From assembly GCA_044868005.1 (NCBI GenBank), contig JBIOVX010000013.1, forward strand, positions 2,172-66,171: a DNA stretch of 64,000 nucleotides, read 5' to 3'. The translations under genes and the position numbers were made by a program. The notes beneath the pieces were generated by a model that made no database searches, was not told where the DNA came from, and worked only from the letters and a program-made list of their open reading frames with translations. Origin of the DNA: Thermoanaerobaculia bacterium (lineage in GTDB: Bacteria > Acidobacteriota > Thermoanaerobaculia > Multivoradales > UBA5704). Of the stretch, positions 20,501 to 23,415 are shown piece after piece. The stretch's first letter is position 1; the number at the start of each line of letters is the position of its first letter.

Positions 20501-23415
20501 CGCTCGGCGGCGGCATGGGCACGCTCCTCGACACCATGGAGCAGGGCGCCCAGCAGTCCGAAACGCAGCTCGGAGGATTGGGCTCTGCCGCGCTCGACGC
20601 GCTGCGCATGCTCACCACCAGCAACGACGAGCTCAGCATGCAGGCCGAGAGCGGGTTCGCCGGCCAGATGGACGGCCTGAAGAGCGGCGCCTCCCGTACC
20701 TTCGCCCAGCTCACCGACACCCACGTCGAGCAGGCGGATCAGGCGGCGACAGAGGGTACGGCGAGCATGCAGCAGGCCGTCGCCGGCTTCGACGAAGCGC
20801 TGGCGACCATCGGCGGAAAAGTCGACGAGGCGATCGCCAACTCGCTGCAGGAGCTCGACAAGGATCTCGGCAGCAAGCTCGGCGAGATCGACGACCAGAT
20901 CGCCACCGAGGCCTGGAAAGCCGCCGAGAAGGAGCAGCCCGCCTGGAAGAGCGTCGTCGCCATCGTCCTCGTCATCCTGGTCATCATCGCGGCGGCGGTC
21001 ATCAGCATCGTCACCCTCGGCGCGGGCGCGAGCTTGTTCGCGGTGATCCTCGTGGGCGCCCTGGTCGGCGCCGTCAGCGGCGGGCTGATTCAGATCATCA
21101 ACAACTGGGCCTCGGGCGAGGCGTGGGACAAAGGCCTCGTCCAGGCGATGGTCATGGGGGCGATCGGCGGCGCGATCGGCGGCGGTCTGGGCTTCGCGGG
21201 AGGAGCGCTCGCTTCAGGAGCGGCGGCCGCGGGCGCCCGCGCGGTGACCCAATTCGCCATCACCGTCGGCGCCGATCTGGTCTCGGAAGGAATCACCCAG
21301 ACCATCGGCTACTTTGCCTTCGGCCAGGAATTCAACTGGCAGGGCTTCGCGATGGCGGGGGCGATGTCGGGAGTCAGCTTCCGCGCCCACCCCAGCGTCC
21401 CGCATCCTACTGCCCCCCACGCCCCGGCCCCCCACGCCCCGGCGCCGCACGGTCCGGCGGCGCCGCACGCCGGCGCTCCCCACGCCGAGGTCCCGCATGC
21501 GCCGGCGCCGCACGCCGAGGCTCCGAGCGCTCCGCATCCGAGCGCCCCCGAAGCCCCGAAAGTGCCTTCGACCGGAGCGGCCGGCGGCAGGCGCGCCGCG
21601 GCCACTCAGATCGCCGGCGGTGCCCTGGTGGGCTTCGGTCTCGAAGGCCTCACCTCGCTCATCAGCGGCGAGGAGTTCGACCTCTCACGAGCCGCGTCGT
21701 CGGCGGCCTCGGGTGCGGTCGGCGCGCGCGCGTCCCGTATGGGCGGCCATGGTGGCGGGCCACGGCGGGAACCCACCACGCCTCTCGGCCGCGCCGCCAA
21801 TCGTTTCCTCAACTTCGATCCCGGCGGCGTAGGAGCGCGGCTTGGAAAGCGCCTGGAAGGACTCGGCGGCCGGGCGTTCGGCGCACGGCCCGAAGTGGAG
21901 CTTCCGGCGGGTGCGCGCCCGCGGACTGAAGAAGCTGCTCCTCGGCCTGTCGAGGAGCCCGAGGCGGCGCGACCGCGGCCGACGGAGGAACCCCAGCCCG
22001 AGGCGACGCGACCGCGACCGACAGAAGAGCCTCCGCCGACCCGGCCGCCCGAGGAAGGAGTCGAACCTGGCGCGGGACCGCGAAGGGAAGAGGCTGCCGA
22101 CATTTCCGGGAGGCGTGAGCTCGAGTCGCTGGTAGACACCCCTGCACGGCGAGCTCTTCAAGAAGAAGCCATGATTGGCCGCAGTGTTGAAGTCAAGATT
22201 GGCGGGGAAACACACACCCTCTCAATCCAGAGGATGGGTGACCGCCTCCTAATGATTCTTTGCAGCAATCAGTGCGGCGAATTGATCCTCAAGGTCCGTC
22301 GCCTGCAGGCAGGTGTGGAGCGTGGCTCTCCGGCTTGGCGTGATCTGGAGGCGCTTGCGACACGAGCGCTTGCAGCCGACACAACAATCAATGGAGTTAC
22401 ACCGCGATCCAGTGAGCAGGCAATCAGGGATGCGAACACGGAGCTCGATGGTTTGCGAGCCGAAATGCTTGGTATCGAGACCCGCCATCCAGGTCTCGTT
22501 GATCCGGATGTGCCGGCTGCCGGAGCAACACAAGCTACCGCGTCCGGCAGAAGAGTCAAGATGGAAGATCACCTTCCGGCGGGCGTAAGGGTCGGCGATC
22601 CTGTAACGCTCAATCTGGAAAATGGTGTTCCCGCGCTTCCCCCAGAGCTTCGGAACTTGCCAGAAGGTGTGGAGTTCGTCTATGTGCTTCGAGACAATGT
22701 CACAGGCGAGGTCCTCAAAATAGGAGAGACTGCAGACATTTCTACACGGGCCCGAGACTACGAATCGGCAGCGCGGCTGCATGCGATGGGGCGGAGCGTG
22801 TCTCTGGAGGTCCAGCCCGTTCGCCCCGGATCGCAGGGATTTCCCGATATCCGATCGATCGAGACCGCCTTGCGCAGTAGCGTCGAAGCAGGCATTGCGG
22901 CGGAGCGAGCCGGTGTCCAGGTTCCTCCGCGAACGCCGCCACTGCCCTGGGATGCGACTCTCATCACACTGCCGGGAGCGGGAGGGCAGCGCGTGAGCCG
23001 TCTCGTACCGCATGGCGAGCCCGCAGGTCAGGCCACTCCGGGCCAGTACGATCCGAGGAACAAGACGCGCGCCAGGCCGCCCGCCGCCGGCGAAACGCCC
23101 TTGCAACCAGGCGAGAGCTACTGGTTCAGGGAGCGGAAGTGGGATGTCAGCGGATTTCCTCATCCGCCAGCCCATGTCCCGGGATGGAAGCCTCCGCAGT
23201 TCGCAGAGCGCTTCAGTCCTGTCCCGCAGACGCCGGAAGAGCTTCACAGGGCATTGGGACAAATGTTTGCGGACCCACAGCATCAGCATCTCGGAAAACC
23301 CAGCCTGCGGAGTATTGAGAGAGCACTTGGCGTTGGGAATGATACTGTTCGTAAATATATGCAGAGCGCGGGCCTTACCGTTCAAGATCTTGTCAATCCG
23401 CGAGGAGGCCAATGA
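17560..23415 (+). CDS. Giant (1951 aa) DUF4157-domain protein, candidate eCIS cargo or polymorphic toxin
   Basis: ATG lies 5 nt after the ATPase stop. The N-terminus carries PVQQKCAACEAEE repeats. A DUF4157-type core follows (LPLPHAERIQAAFGRHDVSHVRTSL...ALAFTSGDRIGF...LAAHEAAHVVQQ; HEAAH at 18295-18309). After that come a long Ala/Gln-rich helical region, a Gly-zipper-rich hydrophobic block (20941-21387), a His-Pro repeat, a Pro/Glu linker and a low-GC C-terminal module. Confidence 0.85.
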   Translation: MSAFQAATKTTAKRARQSQPPAAKSEPSRAQGAAPASQARLGPLYSGGPVVGLGRPGAGGEMEPVQQKCAACEAKEAGGEAEPVQQKCAACEAEEASGGAEPVQHKCAACEAEEESGEAEPVQLWNCRKYDEPTCVVQTQEDDAKSPVQSKCAACEAEERVQHEGEPVRSPRMIRREARRGLRDASLPLPHAERIQAAFGRHDVSHVRTSLGGSSRAANSRMGALAFTSGDRIGFREDPSLRLAAHEAAHVVQQREGLSLPDNVGRAGDRWERHADRVADKVVEGGSAEAVLDEVAAPAAPSSGGVAHGGSAAPAASAAPATPAAAAPAVQQQITSGASRLFEPPPVTPEVPASTAEGAGEKKKAGAGEQEGQAEEGSAMEAAEEGDSEAPPEGVTTGGAAASAPASAGGAPPPAGPPAAGGPAPTPGAPTPAAGAPPGPAAGGQAPAAVTSAQAPCYKVDPPPKPKNAPEPSSDDQGAKPKEEPQVTFDEWPAEVDECPAEAAVAQAGQQMPEGVGAGTAPAGGPAAGGAPATTTADVQTGGPAAAAGTGAGPAAAGAGAQAMSTAAPAQTDQSMAQAGSMDGPIASAEGERDTAVTDYLASMDGLGEVLARSQSLASGVTFPSAEGLEQAKARQTAMAQTRAFMTRAAGQIAGAVAFAREQVPGRLGGLAETTKANIQGAIETEKAAISDRIAQARAQARAGAATARAHVRTEYANSAALIEASTLAALSALDTEYETSVGLVDEKETTSLDDVNSRFATGRTQHENKGPEYSKRAIARGQAHADQYERCKGDYDDDGFWTGCLTVRRAKAQQDAACKTASGYHKVFLRTANKKGYDLRELRKRYRCAVIAGARQVNETLDTTHEKLVSGLESGRMQAMGGIALARDQNLAAIDSALAATLKALSAQEFSQRQAVNDTGYLKQLAVEQLAHSSAANLARGISTAMGSLEQTLTTLRVTFAQGVPEPEALAQSLAGAEAALGGGMGTLLDTMEQGAQQSETQLGGLGSAALDALRMLTTSNDELSMQAESGFAGQMDGLKSGASRTFAQLTDTHVEQADQAATEGTASMQQAVAGFDEALATIGGKVDEAIANSLQELDKDLGSKLGEIDDQIATEAWKAAEKEQPAWKSVVAIVLVILVIIAAAVISIVTLGAGASLFAVILVGALVGAVSGGLIQIINNWASGEAWDKGLVQAMVMGAIGGAIGGGLGFAGGALASGAAAAGARAVTQFAITVGADLVSEGITQTIGYFAFGQEFNWQGFAMAGAMSGVSFRAHPSVPHPTAPHAPAPHAPAPHGPAAPHAGAPHAEVPHAPAPHAEAPSAPHPSAPEAPKVPSTGAAGGRRAAATQIAGGALVGFGLEGLTSLISGEEFDLSRAASSAASGAVGARASRMGGHGGGPRREPTTPLGRAANRFLNFDPGGVGARLGKRLEGLGGRAFGARPEVELPAGARPRTEEAAPRPVEEPEAARPRPTEEPQPEATRPRPTEEPPPTRPPEEGVEPGAGPRREEAADISGRRELESLVDTPARRALQEEAMIGRSVEVKIGGETHTLSIQRMGDRLLMILCSNQCGELILKVRRLQAGVERGSPAWRDLEALATRALAADTTINGVTPRSSEQAIRDANTELDGLRAEMLGIETRHPGLVDPDVPAAGATQATASGRRVKMEDHLPAGVRVGDPVTLNLENGVPALPPELRNLPEGVEFVYVLRDNVTGEVLKIGETADISTRARDYESAARLHAMGRSVSLEVQPVRPGSQGFPDIRSIETALRSSVEAGIAAERAGVQVPPRTPPLPWDATLITLPGAGGQRVSRLVPHGEPAGQATPGQYDPRNKTRARPPAAGETPLQPGESYWFRERKWDVSGFPHPPAHVPGWKPPQFAERFSPVPQTPEELHRALGQMFADPQHQHLGKPSLRSIERALGVGNDTVRKYMQSAGLTVQDLVNPRGGQ
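17746..17931 (+). repeat. 57-bp in-frame tandem repeat (3 full units plus a partial one) encoding EPVQQKCAACEAEEasGGa
   Basis: gagccggtgcag recurs at 17746, 17803, 17860 and 17917, a period of exactly 57 nt. A degenerate fifth CAACEAEE motif lies near 18010. Confidence 0.9.
21388..21558 (+). repeat. Imperfect pentapeptide (15-bp) His-Pro repeat, 10 His in 57 aa
   Basis: Translation is HPSVPHPTAPHAPAPHAPAPHGPAAPHAGAPHAEVPHAPAPHAEAPSAPHPSAPEAP, directly after the hydrophobic block. Confidence 0.8.

What the first reader, a model, noticed from the sequence alone, without database searches (positions are those of the whole stretch)
22675..23400. C-terminal module reads like a GIY-YIG-type nuclease followed by a helix-turn-helix
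Seen: the core reads EFVYVLRDNVTGEVLKIGETADISTRARDY...DIRSIETALRSS. This gives Y-V-Y, then K-I-G 11 residues later, an Arg 8 residues after the Gly, and a Glu ~45 residues further on. The last ~35 aa read SLRSIERALGVGNDTVRKYMQSAGLTVQDL, a classic HTH layout.

Established: GIY-YIG nucleases have GIY-(10-11 aa)-YIG, a downstream Arg and a catalytic Glu. GIY-YIG homing endonucleases pair the catalytic domain with a C-terminal HTH DNA-binding module.

Inference: this is a DNase warhead. The assignment is by eye only and is the weakest link of the cassette hypothesis.
Basis: inference. Interest (0 to 1): 0.6.

Follow-up and report, generated by a model that had tools for sequence, protein, structure and literature searches.

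The report
GIY-YIG-type nuclease warhead with DNA-binding tail
The last ~250 residues of a giant cargo protein of a phage-tail-like injection system are a divergent GIY-YIG (T5orf172-like) nuclease domain with a helix-turn-helix tail, always followed by a small DUF4240 gene, so this is a rare, undescribed toxin/immunity cassette of a known general kind.

Summary
Residues ~1700-1951 of the 1951-aa eCIS_core (DUF4157) protein (17560-23415, +) form one conserved module.

- **Nuclease core (1700-1804).** It has a predicted beta-beta-alpha-beta-alpha order. Y1708, K1720, G1722, R1730, Y1734 and E1768 are invariant in all 22 relatives.
- **Extension.** It carries invariant W1797-D1798 and the YWFRERKW motif.
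- **Three-helix HTH (1892-1945).**

Cut out alone, the core scores 20.7 bits on Pfam T5orf172 (GIY-YIG clan), just over the cut-off of 20; relatives score 22-29 bits. A profile-profile comparison with UvrC/YhbQ/T5orf172 GIY-YIG domains gives P = 6e-8, against 0.2-0.6 for reversed controls. Foldseek puts GIY-YIG proteins first in both libraries, but weakly (E 0.014-0.07).

Three relatives' tails pass the Fis-type HTH_8 cut-off and one passes HTH_23. The window's own tail does not.

A DUF4240-family gene follows the toxin in 8 of 8 loci; here the two overlap in ATGA. In other eCIS_core proteins the preceding pre-toxin domain carries deaminase or NS-endonuclease warheads.

The family is rare and unannotated. 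It fails the Tox-URI2 model, and nuclease activity is untested.

The parts
17560..23415 (+). 1951-aa eCIS cargo/polymorphic-toxin protein. Layout: eCIS_core (DUF4157, HEAAH at residue 246), long Ala/Gln/Glu-rich linker, hydrophobic block from about residue 1129, pre-toxin domain, C-terminal warhead.
   Evidence: ORF list and translation. PF13699 eCIS_core at residues 187-257, E 1.7e-11. The gene starts 5 nt after the AAA ATPase gene of the eCIS locus. Motif positions.
22177..22584 (+). Pre-toxin (adaptor) domain, residues ~1540-1675: beta-hairpin plus three-helix bundle with the CSNQCGE motif, ending in VDPDVP.
   Evidence: Matches residues 1-136 of the query in many other proteins. Those proteins carry other C-termini: MafB19 deaminase, Endonuclea_NS_2, DUF2380. 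No Pfam model hits it. Fold search gives only generic helical bundles.
22657..22971 (+). GIY-YIG / T5orf172-like nuclease core, residues 1700-1804. Invariant Y1708, R1711, D1712, K1720, G1722, R1730, Y1734, E1768, R1772, W1797, D1798.
   Evidence: T5orf172 20.7 bits, E 6e-4 on the isolated core. hhalign P 3.5e-6 against UvrC and 6.3e-8 against the merged GIY-YIG reference. Invariant columns. AF2 beta-beta-alpha-beta-alpha order. Foldseek top hits UvrC, Slx1, BH0048 and phage GIY-YIG proteins.
22972..23232 (+). Family-specific extension, residues 1805-1891. It holds the G1823..P1827-G1828 motif (GPGTPG in relatives), Y1854-W-F-R-E-R-K-W and P1874. This copy has a Pro-rich insertion of about 35 aa.
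   Evidence: Conserved columns in A1 and A3. Low model confidence. Short forms keep only LPWD...GLPWER.
23233..23394 (+). C-terminal helix-turn-helix, residues 1892-1945. Helices 1892-1904, 1916-1923 and 1929-1936 (putative recognition helix), plus 1941-1945.
   Evidence: AF2 pLDDT 84-95. Homologous tails of P0006, P0009 and P0016 pass the HTH_8 cut-off (25.6-27.0 bits) and P0043 passes HTH_23 (27.4 bits). 7 of 14 members hit HTH_29 and 6 hit HTH_8. Weak IS21-transposase HTH match for the window copy.
23412..23810 (+). 132-aa DUF4240-family gene, the presumed immunity protein. Its start overlaps the toxin stop (ATGA), with GAGGAGG 3 nt upstream.
   Evidence: Sequence. DUF4240 22.3 bits for the window copy; 8 of 8 homologues hit DUF4240, best E 1.2e-10. 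A homologue lies directly downstream of the toxin in L001, L002, L007, L008, L010, L047 and L048.
22100..23810 (.). Low-GC cassette (58.4% GC, against 72.6% for the rest of the ORF and 71.1% downstream). It covers the pre-toxin domain, the warhead and the immunity gene.
   Evidence: Composition profiles. The same dip is seen in relatives L047, L048 and L001.
23814..24809 (+). 331-aa pentapeptide-repeat protein (MfpA/Qnr-like). It is the frequently conserved third gene; its link to the cassette is unproven.
   Evidence: PF00805 E 2.1e-40. NCBIfam HetL/MfpA/Qnr-type hits. Homologues follow the DUF4240 gene in L047 (73% identity), L007 (46%) and L048 (start only).

Best explanation
Residues ~1700-1951 are the swappable C-terminal warhead of an eCIS-delivered polymorphic toxin. 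The warhead is a divergent GIY-YIG-superfamily (T5orf172-like, 'Y...KxG...R...Y...E') endonuclease core joined, through a family-specific extension, to a small HTH DNA-binding domain.

Inferred mechanism:
1. The 1951-aa protein is made together with the eCIS particle and loaded as cargo through its eCIS_core (DUF4157) head.
2. After injection the C-terminal module acts in the target cytoplasm, possibly after release near the pre-toxin domain and its VDPDVP linker.
3. The HTH tethers the module to double-stranded DNA.
4. The core cuts DNA by the one-metal GIY-YIG mechanism. Y1708 would act as the base. R1730, K1720 and Y1734 would sit on the scissile phosphate. E1768 would hold the metal. W1797-D1798 would take the place of the classical Asn motif.
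5. In the producer, the translationally coupled DUF4240 protein (23412-23810) binds and neutralises the toxin.

Shown here: homology and fold class, invariant residues, HTH homology, cassette position, conserved gene pairing, and translational overlap.

Inferred: nuclease activity, DNA as substrate, roles of individual residues, release, and immunity by binding.
For: - **Context.** The gene follows Tail_P2_I and AAA ATPase eCIS genes and has an eCIS_core domain. This is the layout Geller et al. 2021 (PMC8213781) describe for eCIS toxins: DUF4157 at the N-terminus, a linker that can exceed 1000 aa, and a C-terminal toxin.
- **GIY-YIG, sequence profiles.** T5orf172 scores 20.7 bits on the window core and 29.2, 24.3 and 22.1 bits on relatives. 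PF01541 scores E 0.011-0.08.
- **GIY-YIG, profile-profile.** hhalign gives Prob 87.6%, P 3.5e-6 against UvrC domains and Prob 94.7%, P 6.3e-8 against the merged reference. Reversed controls give P 0.2-0.6.
- **Invariant residues.** Y, K-x-G, R, Y and E are invariant across all relatives.
- **Structure.** The AF2 model has the beta-beta-alpha-beta-alpha order at pLDDT about 75-88. The top Foldseek hits are the UvrC GIY-YIG domain, BH0048 and Slx1 in PDB, and phage GIY-YIG proteins in BFVD at prob up to 1.0.
- **T5orf172 domains are active nucleases.** ICP1 Odn cleaves double-stranded DNA (PMC8263062).
- **HTH.**
- **Toxin logic.** The same pre-toxin domain carries MafB19 deaminase or NS-endonuclease domains elsewhere. 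Short forms of the core sit directly after PT-HINT domains. A DUF4240 gene is downstream in 8 of 8 loci. The ATGA overlap has an SD sequence. The cassette is a low-GC segment.
- **Precedent.** URI (GIY-YIG) nucleases are an established polymorphic-toxin class. Tox-URI2 has the motif 'Y, KxG, [EQ]' (PMC3482391).
Against: - No biochemical data exist for any family member.
- Scores are marginal for the window copy: 14.7-18.2 bits in longer contexts, below the cut-off of 20.
- Foldseek E-values are only 0.014-0.07, with TM 0.3-0.4 and rmsd 3-6 A.
- Sequence and profile searches of PDB find no nuclease.
- The second motif Tyr is a Lys, and no Asn motif is found.
- hhalign is confident only over the first 36 columns.
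- The window's own tail has no Pfam HTH hit and carries an inserted loop.
- The extension (1805-1891) is modelled at pLDDT below 50.
Confidence: 0.75

Rival explanations
1. The fold is GIY-YIG-like, but the module acts on RNA or another phosphodiester substrate, or as a sequence- or structure-specific nickase, rather than as a general DNase. The HTH would then serve for localisation or partner binding.
For: - The substrate is not addressed by any result here.
- The family is as far from UvrC and I-TevI as the superfamily allows: K replaces Y and no Asn motif is seen.
- The conserved extension could redefine substrate binding.
Against: - Characterised GIY-YIG/T5orf172 enzymes cut DNA (PMC8263062).
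- Zhang et al. list the Tox-URI families just before their 'RNase toxins of known fold' block (PMC3482391).
- An HTH of Fis/homeodomain type fits double-stranded DNA.
Confidence: 0.12
2. The GIY-YIG-like core is catalytically dead. The module would then be a DNA-binding effector that interferes with target DNA transactions by binding, or a non-toxic cargo.
For: - The second Tyr is replaced and there is no Asn motif.
- Profile scores are marginal.
- The tail is a bona fide DNA-binding type.
Against: - The residues needed for catalysis (Y, R, Y, E) are invariant across phyla, which argues for selection on activity.
- KxG is the normal form in T5orf172 and Tox-URI2.
- Short forms without any HTH still sit in toxin slots with their own downstream genes.
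- A dedicated, translationally coupled partner gene is conserved.
Confidence: 0.07
3. The motif match is chance, and the region has another fold and function.
For: - No PDB sequence hit.
- Foldseek E-values are all above 0.01.
- The structure alignment is shallow (12 sequences).
Against: - Independent methods converge on one superfamily (53 and 71).
- Reversed controls fail.
- The motif residues are invariant.
Confidence: 0.04
4. The module is a domesticated or in-frame-inserted GIY-YIG homing endonuclease (catalytic domain plus HTH) acting as a selfish mobile element, not as a delivered toxin.
For: - The catalytic-domain, linker and C-terminal HTH architecture resembles I-TevI-type enzymes.
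- The segment has lower GC than its surroundings.
Against: - It is always fused in frame behind a pre-toxin domain that elsewhere carries unrelated toxins.
- It is paired with a DUF4240 gene.
- There is only one copy in the genome.
- None was found in 91 other genomes of the same taxonomic family.
- The low-GC segment also covers the pre-toxin domain and the immunity gene.
Confidence: 0.02

Closest known systems
T5orf172 domain nucleases (Pfam PF10544, GIY-YIG clan), e.g. phage ICP1 Odn/Gp88 (PMC8263062)
   Same: - It is the best-scoring family for all 8 cores tested, and above the cut-off for four.
- The motif layout is the same: Y ... K-I-G-x-T ... R ... E.
- The nuclease domain works together with a separate DNA-binding domain.
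- Odn cleaves double-stranded DNA, and its conserved Glu was the residue chosen for mutation (E180A).
   Different: - Odn has an N-terminal RepA_N-like DNA-binding domain and is a phage anti-satellite weapon. Here the DNA-binding HTH is C-terminal and the domain is a delivered toxin warhead.
- The last third of the T5orf172 profile (positions about 75-101) is not matched. It is replaced by the PWD / GPGTPG / YWWRERKW extension.
- Here an invariant Tyr follows the Arg by 4 residues, which Odn lacks.
Tox-URI1 / Tox-URI2 polymorphic-toxin nucleases (Zhang et al. 2012, PMC3482391; Pfam PF15653 Tox-URI2)
   Same: - A URI (GIY-YIG) nuclease used as the C-terminal domain of polymorphic toxins with an adjacent immunity gene.
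- The Tox-URI2 signature 'Y, KxG, [EQ]' fits. HINT pre-toxin domains precede the short-form relatives.
   Different: - The Pfam Tox-URI2 model hits only 1 of 8 cores, at E 0.07 and 13.9 bits, below the cut-off of 20.
- The listed delivery routes are T2SS, T5SS, T6SS and TcdB/TcaC, not PVC/eCIS.
- The listed immunity families are Imm9, 12, 14, 26, 39, 44 and 51, not DUF4240.
- No HTH tail is listed for them.
eCIS-associated toxins with an N-terminal DUF4157 (Geller et al. 2021, PMC8213781)
   Same: - Position at the 3' end of an eCIS operon.
- DUF4157 at the N-terminus, a very long linker and a C-terminal toxin domain.
- Some of those toxins have linked antitoxins.
   Different: Neither that paper nor the 2024 machine-learning follow-up (PMC11297309) mentions GIY-YIG, T5orf172 or DUF4240. 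This warhead family is therefore not among those described there.
GIY-YIG homing endonucleases of the I-TevI type
   Same: - A catalytic GIY-YIG domain, a linker and a C-terminal HTH DNA-binding domain.
- The catalytic set of Tyr, Arg, Tyr/His and Glu (own knowledge; alignment logic).
   Different: - Homing enzymes are free-standing ORFs in introns or intergenic sites, and their second motif residue is Tyr.
- This one is fused to a 1700-aa carrier, has Lys at that position, carries an immunity partner, and shows no sign of homing.
UvrC N-terminal GIY-YIG domain (PDB 1yd6, 1ycz)
   Same: - Top PDB structural match.
- hhalign aligns Y1708, K1720-x-G1722, R1730 and Y1734 with the Tyr, Tyr-x-Gly, Arg and Tyr of UvrC.
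   Different: - About 16-20% identity, TM 0.34-0.41.
- The alignment is confident only for the first half.
- UvrC is a repair nuclease with an Asn motif that this family lacks.

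Membership tests
GIY-YIG nuclease superfamily (Pfam clan incl. PF01541, PF10544 T5orf172, PF15653 Tox-URI2) | First motif: a hydrophobic-x-Tyr ('GIY') on strand 1 | tested here: met
   F-V-Y1708. The Tyr is invariant in 14 of 14 and 12 of 12 relatives and aligns to the UvrC 'GVY' Tyr.
GIY-YIG nuclease superfamily (Pfam clan incl. PF01541, PF10544 T5orf172, PF15653 Tox-URI2) | Second motif 'YIG' on strand 2, about 10-11 residues later | tested here: inconclusive
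   K1720-I-G1722. The Gly is invariant, but the Tyr is replaced by an invariant Lys. The canonical Tyr is therefore not met. KxG is the normal form in T5orf172 and Tox-URI2.
GIY-YIG nuclease superfamily (Pfam clan incl. PF01541, PF10544 T5orf172, PF15653 Tox-URI2) | Conserved Arg in helix 1 (about 8-10 residues after the Gly), followed 4 residues later by His or Tyr | tested here: met
   R1730 (+8) and Y1734 (+4 from the Arg) are both invariant. They align with the UvrC Arg and Tyr.
GIY-YIG nuclease superfamily (Pfam clan incl. PF01541, PF10544 T5orf172, PF15653 Tox-URI2) | Metal-binding Glu in helix 2 | tested here: met
   E1768 is invariant and lies in the second predicted helix. The T5orf172 profile match extends over it (positions 2-65). 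Its register against UvrC is of low confidence.
GIY-YIG nuclease superfamily (Pfam clan incl. PF01541, PF10544 T5orf172, PF15653 Tox-URI2) | Conserved Asn after helix 2 | tested here: not met
   There is no conserved Asn. An invariant W1797-D1798 ('LPWD') sits where the Asn or the T5orf172 'EFF' motif would be: 29 residues after the Glu here and about 16 in the short forms. Equivalence is inferred only.
GIY-YIG nuclease superfamily (Pfam clan incl. PF01541, PF10544 T5orf172, PF15653 Tox-URI2) | Beta-beta-alpha-beta-alpha fold | tested here: inconclusive
   The AF2 model has this order (E11-18, E24-30, H33-47, E53-60, H70-88) at pLDDT about 75-88. Foldseek's best hits in two libraries are GIY-YIG domains, but at E 0.014-0.07 and TM 0.3-0.4.
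GIY-YIG nuclease superfamily (Pfam clan incl. PF01541, PF10544 T5orf172, PF15653 Tox-URI2) | Score over a curated family threshold | tested here: met
   T5orf172 scores 20.7 bits against a cut-off of 20 on the isolated window core, and 29.2, 24.3 and 22.1 bits on relatives. In longer contexts the window copy scores 14.7-18.2 bits, below the cut-off. PF01541 and PF15653 stay below their cut-offs.
GIY-YIG nuclease superfamily (Pfam clan incl. PF01541, PF10544 T5orf172, PF15653 Tox-URI2) | Metal-dependent endonuclease activity | not testable with these tools
   Needs expression and in vitro cleavage assays.
Pfam Tox-URI2 (PF15653) | Score over the gathering threshold (20 bits) | tested here: not met
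   Only 1 of 8 cores hits, at E 0.07 and 13.9 bits. The window core gets no hit at E <= 10.
Polymorphic toxin system (Zhang et al. 2012) | Variable C-terminal toxin domains behind a shared carrier or pre-toxin region | tested here: met
   The pre-toxin domain (residues 1540-1675) is followed by MafB19 deaminase, Endonuclea_NS_2, DUF2380 or unknown domains in other eCIS_core proteins.
Polymorphic toxin system (Zhang et al. 2012) | Cognate immunity gene immediately downstream | tested here: met
   A DUF4240-family gene lies directly downstream in 8 of 8 loci with sequence available. It overlaps the toxin stop here. The protective function itself is untested.
eCIS-associated toxin (Geller et al. 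2021) | Encoded at the 3' end of an eCIS operon, with a DUF4157 domain | tested here: met
   Tail_P2_I and AAA ATPase genes lie upstream. eCIS_core scores E 1.7e-11. Criteria as given in PMC8213781. Loading and injection are not testable here.
GIY-YIG homing endonuclease (I-TevI type) | Free-standing mobile ORF (intron or intergenic) with a site-specific DNA-binding domain | tested here: not met
   It is an in-frame C-terminal part of a 1951-aa protein. There is a single copy in the genome and none in 91 other genomes of the same taxonomic family. Only the domain order resembles I-TevI.
HTH DNA-binding domain (Pfam HTH_8 Fis type / HTH_23) | Score over the family threshold on the tail | tested here: inconclusive
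   The window tail gets no HTH hit at E <= 1. Homologous tails pass the cut-offs: P0006 25.6, P0009 27.0 and P0016 26.8 bits on HTH_8 (cut-off 22), and P0043 27.4 bits on HTH_23 (cut-off 24.6). The window tail is modelled as three helices at pLDDT 84-95.

The most novel reading that the evidence does not exclude
The conserved trio of toxin, DUF4240 and pentapeptide-repeat protein is a three-part system. The B-DNA-mimicking pentapeptide protein would occupy the DNA-binding surface of the HTH-nuclease, acting as a second immunity layer or a loading chaperone. DUF4240 would block the active site. The PWD / GPGTPG / YWWRERKW extension would be a new DNA-clamping subdomain that replaces the Asn motif. 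This would be immunity by DNA mimicry for an injected nuclease, and the first function for DUF4240.
Probability: 0.12. Interest if true: 0.65.

Novelty: new variant of a known kind. Interest (0 to 1): 0.45.

Why it matters
- **The weak link is now supported.** The by-eye warhead assignment in this eCIS cargo hypothesis now has a tested assignment behind it. It also yields a short list of residues to mutate: Y1708, K1720, R1730, Y1734, E1768 and D1798.
- **A small, unannotated toxin family is defined.** Only about 16 relatives of the nuclease module turned up among 1.84 billion representative proteins. The family links GIY-YIG/URI nucleases to eCIS delivery, a route not listed for Tox-URI toxins in Zhang et al. 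2012.
- **A toxin nuclease carries its own HTH.** The layout is that of homing endonucleases.
- **DUF4240 gets a testable function.** It is a family of unknown function with no paper in the searched library. Here it would be the immunity protein.
- **Possible practical use.** Nuclease cargoes with a compact cognate inhibitor are of interest for engineered eCIS delivery.

Tried and rejected
**Searches that gave little or nothing**
- phmmer of the 404-aa C-terminus against PDB gave only a spurious AroE hit.
- The family profile against PDB gave no nuclease, only a weak HTH-like match to 2x48.
- NCBIfam had no family, only a faint IS21 HTH match. PHROGs gave one weak hit of unknown function.
- Single-sequence AlphaFold of residues 1540-1951 was poor for the core (pLDDT about 50). 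It showed only the secondary-structure order.
- Fold search of that model found only generic helical bundles for the pre-toxin domain.
- The search for homologous proteins with alignment A1 returned nothing, perhaps because common words crowded the 8000-candidate pre-filter.
- The region search found only four long homologues.
- Literature searches for 'DUF4240' returned nothing.

**Readings considered and rejected**
- Membership of Pfam Tox-URI2 was rejected on score.
- A homing-endonuclease or mobile-element reading was rejected. There is a single genomic copy, and no pre-toxin homologue in 91 genomes of the same taxonomic family.
- The long ORF on the opposite strand (22249-23412, 387 aa) was dismissed as a high-GC artefact, because the + frame has homologues throughout.
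- I considered whether the low GC marks a recent swap in this genome only. The same dip occurs in three relatives, so it is a property of the cassette lineage.

Full report
**1. What is there**

The window is about 70-75% GC. A 1951-aa ORF runs from 17560 to 23415 on the + strand. It starts 5 nt after an AAA ATPase gene. That gene closes a row of co-directional genes which include a Tail_P2_I-type baseplate protein.

The protein has a Pfam eCIS_core (DUF4157) domain at residues 187-257, E 1.7e-11, with HEAAH at residue 246. This matches the layout Geller et al. 2021 (PMC8213781) describe for toxins of extracellular contractile injection systems: a 3'-terminal gene, DUF4157 at the N-terminus, a linker that can exceed 1000 aa, and the toxin at the C-terminus.

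The only slip is 'Y-V-Y'; the local sequence is F-V-Y-V-L.

**2. Relatives and module borders**

A scan of 1.84 billion representative proteins with residues 1540-1951 found 40 hits. They split the region in two.

- **Residues about 1540-1675.** This is a pre-toxin domain, G..H.LSI.R.G..L...LCS..CGE ... VDPDVP. It recurs in many proteins that continue with unrelated C-termini. In other eCIS_core proteins it precedes a MafB19-like deaminase, an Endonuclea_NS_2 nuclease or a DUF2380 domain. Position 1700 onward is therefore the warhead slot of a polymorphic toxin.
- **The warhead itself.** It has only about 16 relatives in that library. A pattern scan found 5 loci in 185,579 species genomes and 6 in JGI metagenomes.

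Alignments of 14 and 12 relatives show one conserved unit:
- a core of about 105 aa;
- an extension with LPWD, GPGTPG and YWWRERKW motifs;
- a C-terminal tail of about 50 aa.

Invariant residues in window numbering are Y1708, R1711, D1712, G1716, K1720, G1722, R1730, Y1734, E1768, R1772, W1797, D1798, G1823, P1827, G1828, W1855 and P1874.

Shorter forms exist:
- Core plus LPWD...GLPWER only, directly behind PT-HINT domains in Alcaligenaceae, Planctomycetota and Gemmataceae MAGs.
- Core plus extension without the tail, in a cyanobacterial MAG.

**3. Is the core a GIY-YIG domain?**

*Sequence profiles.* In the full protein T5orf172 (PF10544, GIY-YIG clan) scores 14.7 bits, and 17-18 bits in C-terminal pieces, below the cut-off of 20. 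On the isolated 105-aa core it scores 20.7 bits, E 6e-4. Relatives score 29.2, 24.3 and 22.1 bits. T5orf172 is hit by 8 of 8 cores, PF01541 (GIY-YIG) by 4 of 8 at E 0.011-0.08, and Tox-URI2 by 1 of 8 at E 0.07.

*Profile against profile.* I took bona fide GIY-YIG domains from genomes of the same phylum and family: 20 UvrC N-termini, 10 small YhbQ-type proteins and 3 T5orf172 proteins.
- hhalign of the 22-sequence toxin core against UvrC gives Prob 87.6%, P 3.5e-6.
- Against the merged reference it gives Prob 94.7%, P 6.3e-8.
- Reversed templates give P 0.2-0.6.
- The confident stretch (about 36 columns) aligns Y1708, K1720-x-G1722, R1730 and Y1734 with the Tyr, Tyr-x-Gly, Arg and Tyr of UvrC.

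*Structure.* With a 12-row alignment AlphaFold gives mean pLDDT 70.5. The core is beta-beta-alpha-beta-alpha at about 75-88.
- Foldseek against PDB ranks the UvrC GIY-YIG domain first (1yd6, E 0.074). BH0048 (1zg2) and Slx1 (6seh) are also in the top six.
- Foldseek against BFVD ranks phage GIY-YIG proteins first (E 0.014, prob 1.0).
- These scores are weak one by one (TM 0.3-0.4), but two libraries agree with the sequence methods.

*Departures from the canon.*
- The second motif Tyr is an invariant Lys. This is the usual form in T5orf172 and in Zhang et al.'s Tox-URI2 ('Y, KxG, [EQ]'; PMC3482391).
- No Asn motif is present. The invariant W-D of LPWD lies where it would be expected. That equivalence is inference.

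T5orf172 domains are active DNA endonucleases. ICP1 Odn cleaves double-stranded DNA, and its conserved Glu was the residue chosen for the E180A mutant (PMC8263062).

**4. The tail**

The window's tail (residues 1890-1951) gets no Pfam HTH hit at E <= 1, and only a faint IS21-transposase HTH match. The aligned tails of relatives do pass curated cut-offs:
- HTH_8 (Fis type): 25.6, 27.0 and 26.8 bits in P0006, P0009 and P0016.
- HTH_23: 27.4 bits in P0043.

Of 14 members, 7 hit HTH_29 and 6 hit HTH_8. The model shows helices at 1892-1904, 1916-1923 and 1929-1936 at pLDDT 84-95. The HTH reading therefore holds by homology and model. The window copy is a divergent member, with an inserted loop (ADPQHQHLGKPS) before helix 2.

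**5. Toxin/immunity logic**

- The 132-aa gene at 23412-23810 overlaps the toxin stop (caATGAgc) and has GAGGAGG 3 nt upstream.
- Homologues lie directly after the toxin in every locus where downstream sequence exists: L001, L002, L007, L008, L010, L047 and L048.
- All eight proteins match Pfam DUF4240, best E 1.2e-10; the window copy scores 22.3 bits, below the cut-off of 27.
- No solved structure is related, and no paper in the library mentions DUF4240.
- Short-form toxins have a different downstream gene.
- The cassette from about 22100 to 23810 has 58.4% GC, against 72.6% for the rest of the ORF. The same dip is seen in three relatives from other high-GC hosts.
- The genome has one copy. 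None of 91 other genomes of the same taxonomic family has the pre-toxin domain.

**6. Mechanism proposed**

- *Shown:* fold class, invariant residues, tail homology, warhead position, gene pairing and translational overlap.
- *Inferred:* the eCIS delivers the protein. The module, possibly released near the pre-toxin domain, binds DNA through the HTH. It cuts by the one-metal GIY-YIG mechanism, with Y1708, R1730 and E1768 as the key residues. DUF4240 neutralises it in the producer.

I put 0.75 on this. The rivals are another substrate (0.12), a dead core acting by DNA binding (0.07), a chance match (0.04) and a homing element (0.02).

**7. Comparison and novelty**

- It works like a T5orf172/GIY-YIG endonuclease with an attached DNA-binding domain.
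- It belongs to the general class of URI-nuclease polymorphic toxins and DUF4157-headed eCIS toxins.
- It is not a member of Pfam Tox-URI2 by score.
- Zhang et al. do not list PVC/eCIS delivery, an HTH tail or DUF4240 immunity for URI toxins.
- The two eCIS toxin surveys do not mention GIY-YIG, T5orf172 or DUF4240.

I class it as a new variant of a known kind, of moderate interest. Earlier notes of this scan on the same genome describe the same cassette, carrier and pentapeptide gene. They agree with what I found and did not change it.

Noticed in passing
window 23814-24809; L047 8171-9163; L007 4060-4392; L048 6546-6632: A pentapeptide-repeat (MfpA/Qnr-like, DNA-mimic type) protein is the third gene after the toxin and DUF4240 in the window, L047 (73% identity), L007 (46%, cut by the contig end) and L048 (only the first 29 residues). 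It is absent from L001, L002, L008 and L010. Here its start lies 3 nt after the DUF4240 stop, with its own GAGGAG. It may be functionally tied to a DNA-binding toxin.
   Followed up: partly
window 22177-22584 (residues 1540-1675): An undescribed pre-toxin domain (G..H.LSI.R.G..L...LCS..CGE, three-helix bundle, ending VDPDVP) has no Pfam model. It is shared by eCIS_core and PT-TG proteins carrying MafB19 deaminase, Endonuclea_NS_2, DUF2380 and at least one further unknown warhead (motif SPNL.GVG...LP.L[ST]PR).
   Followed up: partly
L003 4936-6875; L004 5039-6914; L005; L009: Short-form relatives of the nuclease core sit behind SEC-C-motif plus PT-HINT carriers in Alcaligenaceae, Planctomycetota and Gemmataceae MAGs. 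A different conserved downstream gene follows (HPEYWFYT...FVFWWGQS[YF]TMD, no Pfam hit). In L004 a SUKH/SMI1_KNR4 immunity-type gene comes next. In L004 the carrier and the toxin are split into two ORFs.
   Followed up: partly
L002 3161-5093: A cyanobacterial locus has a small stand-alone DUF4157 gene, then a Lys/Val-rich low-complexity stretch. Next is one ORF with a partial and a complete copy of the nuclease module in tandem, without an HTH. A clear DUF4240 gene follows (39.8 bits).
   Followed up: no
L047 6291-8100; L048 4943-6443; L001 5421-7100: The GC dip over pre-toxin domain, warhead and immunity gene recurs in all three relatives from other high-GC hosts. The low GC therefore travels with the cassette lineage and does not mark a swap unique to this genome.
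   Followed up: partly
L021 (G077:C2:1655847-1657471): An unrelated genome of the same phylum has five tandem copies, about 353 nt apart, of a small (112-116 aa) YhbQ-type GIY-YIG ORF. All five score identically (58.5 bits).
   Followed up: no
L047 9166-11022: In the closest relative a second, shorter eCIS_core protein (618 aa) follows the pentapeptide gene. The window has glycosyltransferase genes at that position instead.
   Followed up: no
window 10990-13275: A 761-aa protein with a C-terminal OMP beta-barrel domain (PF13505, E 2e-8) is encoded inside the eCIS gene row.
   Followed up: no
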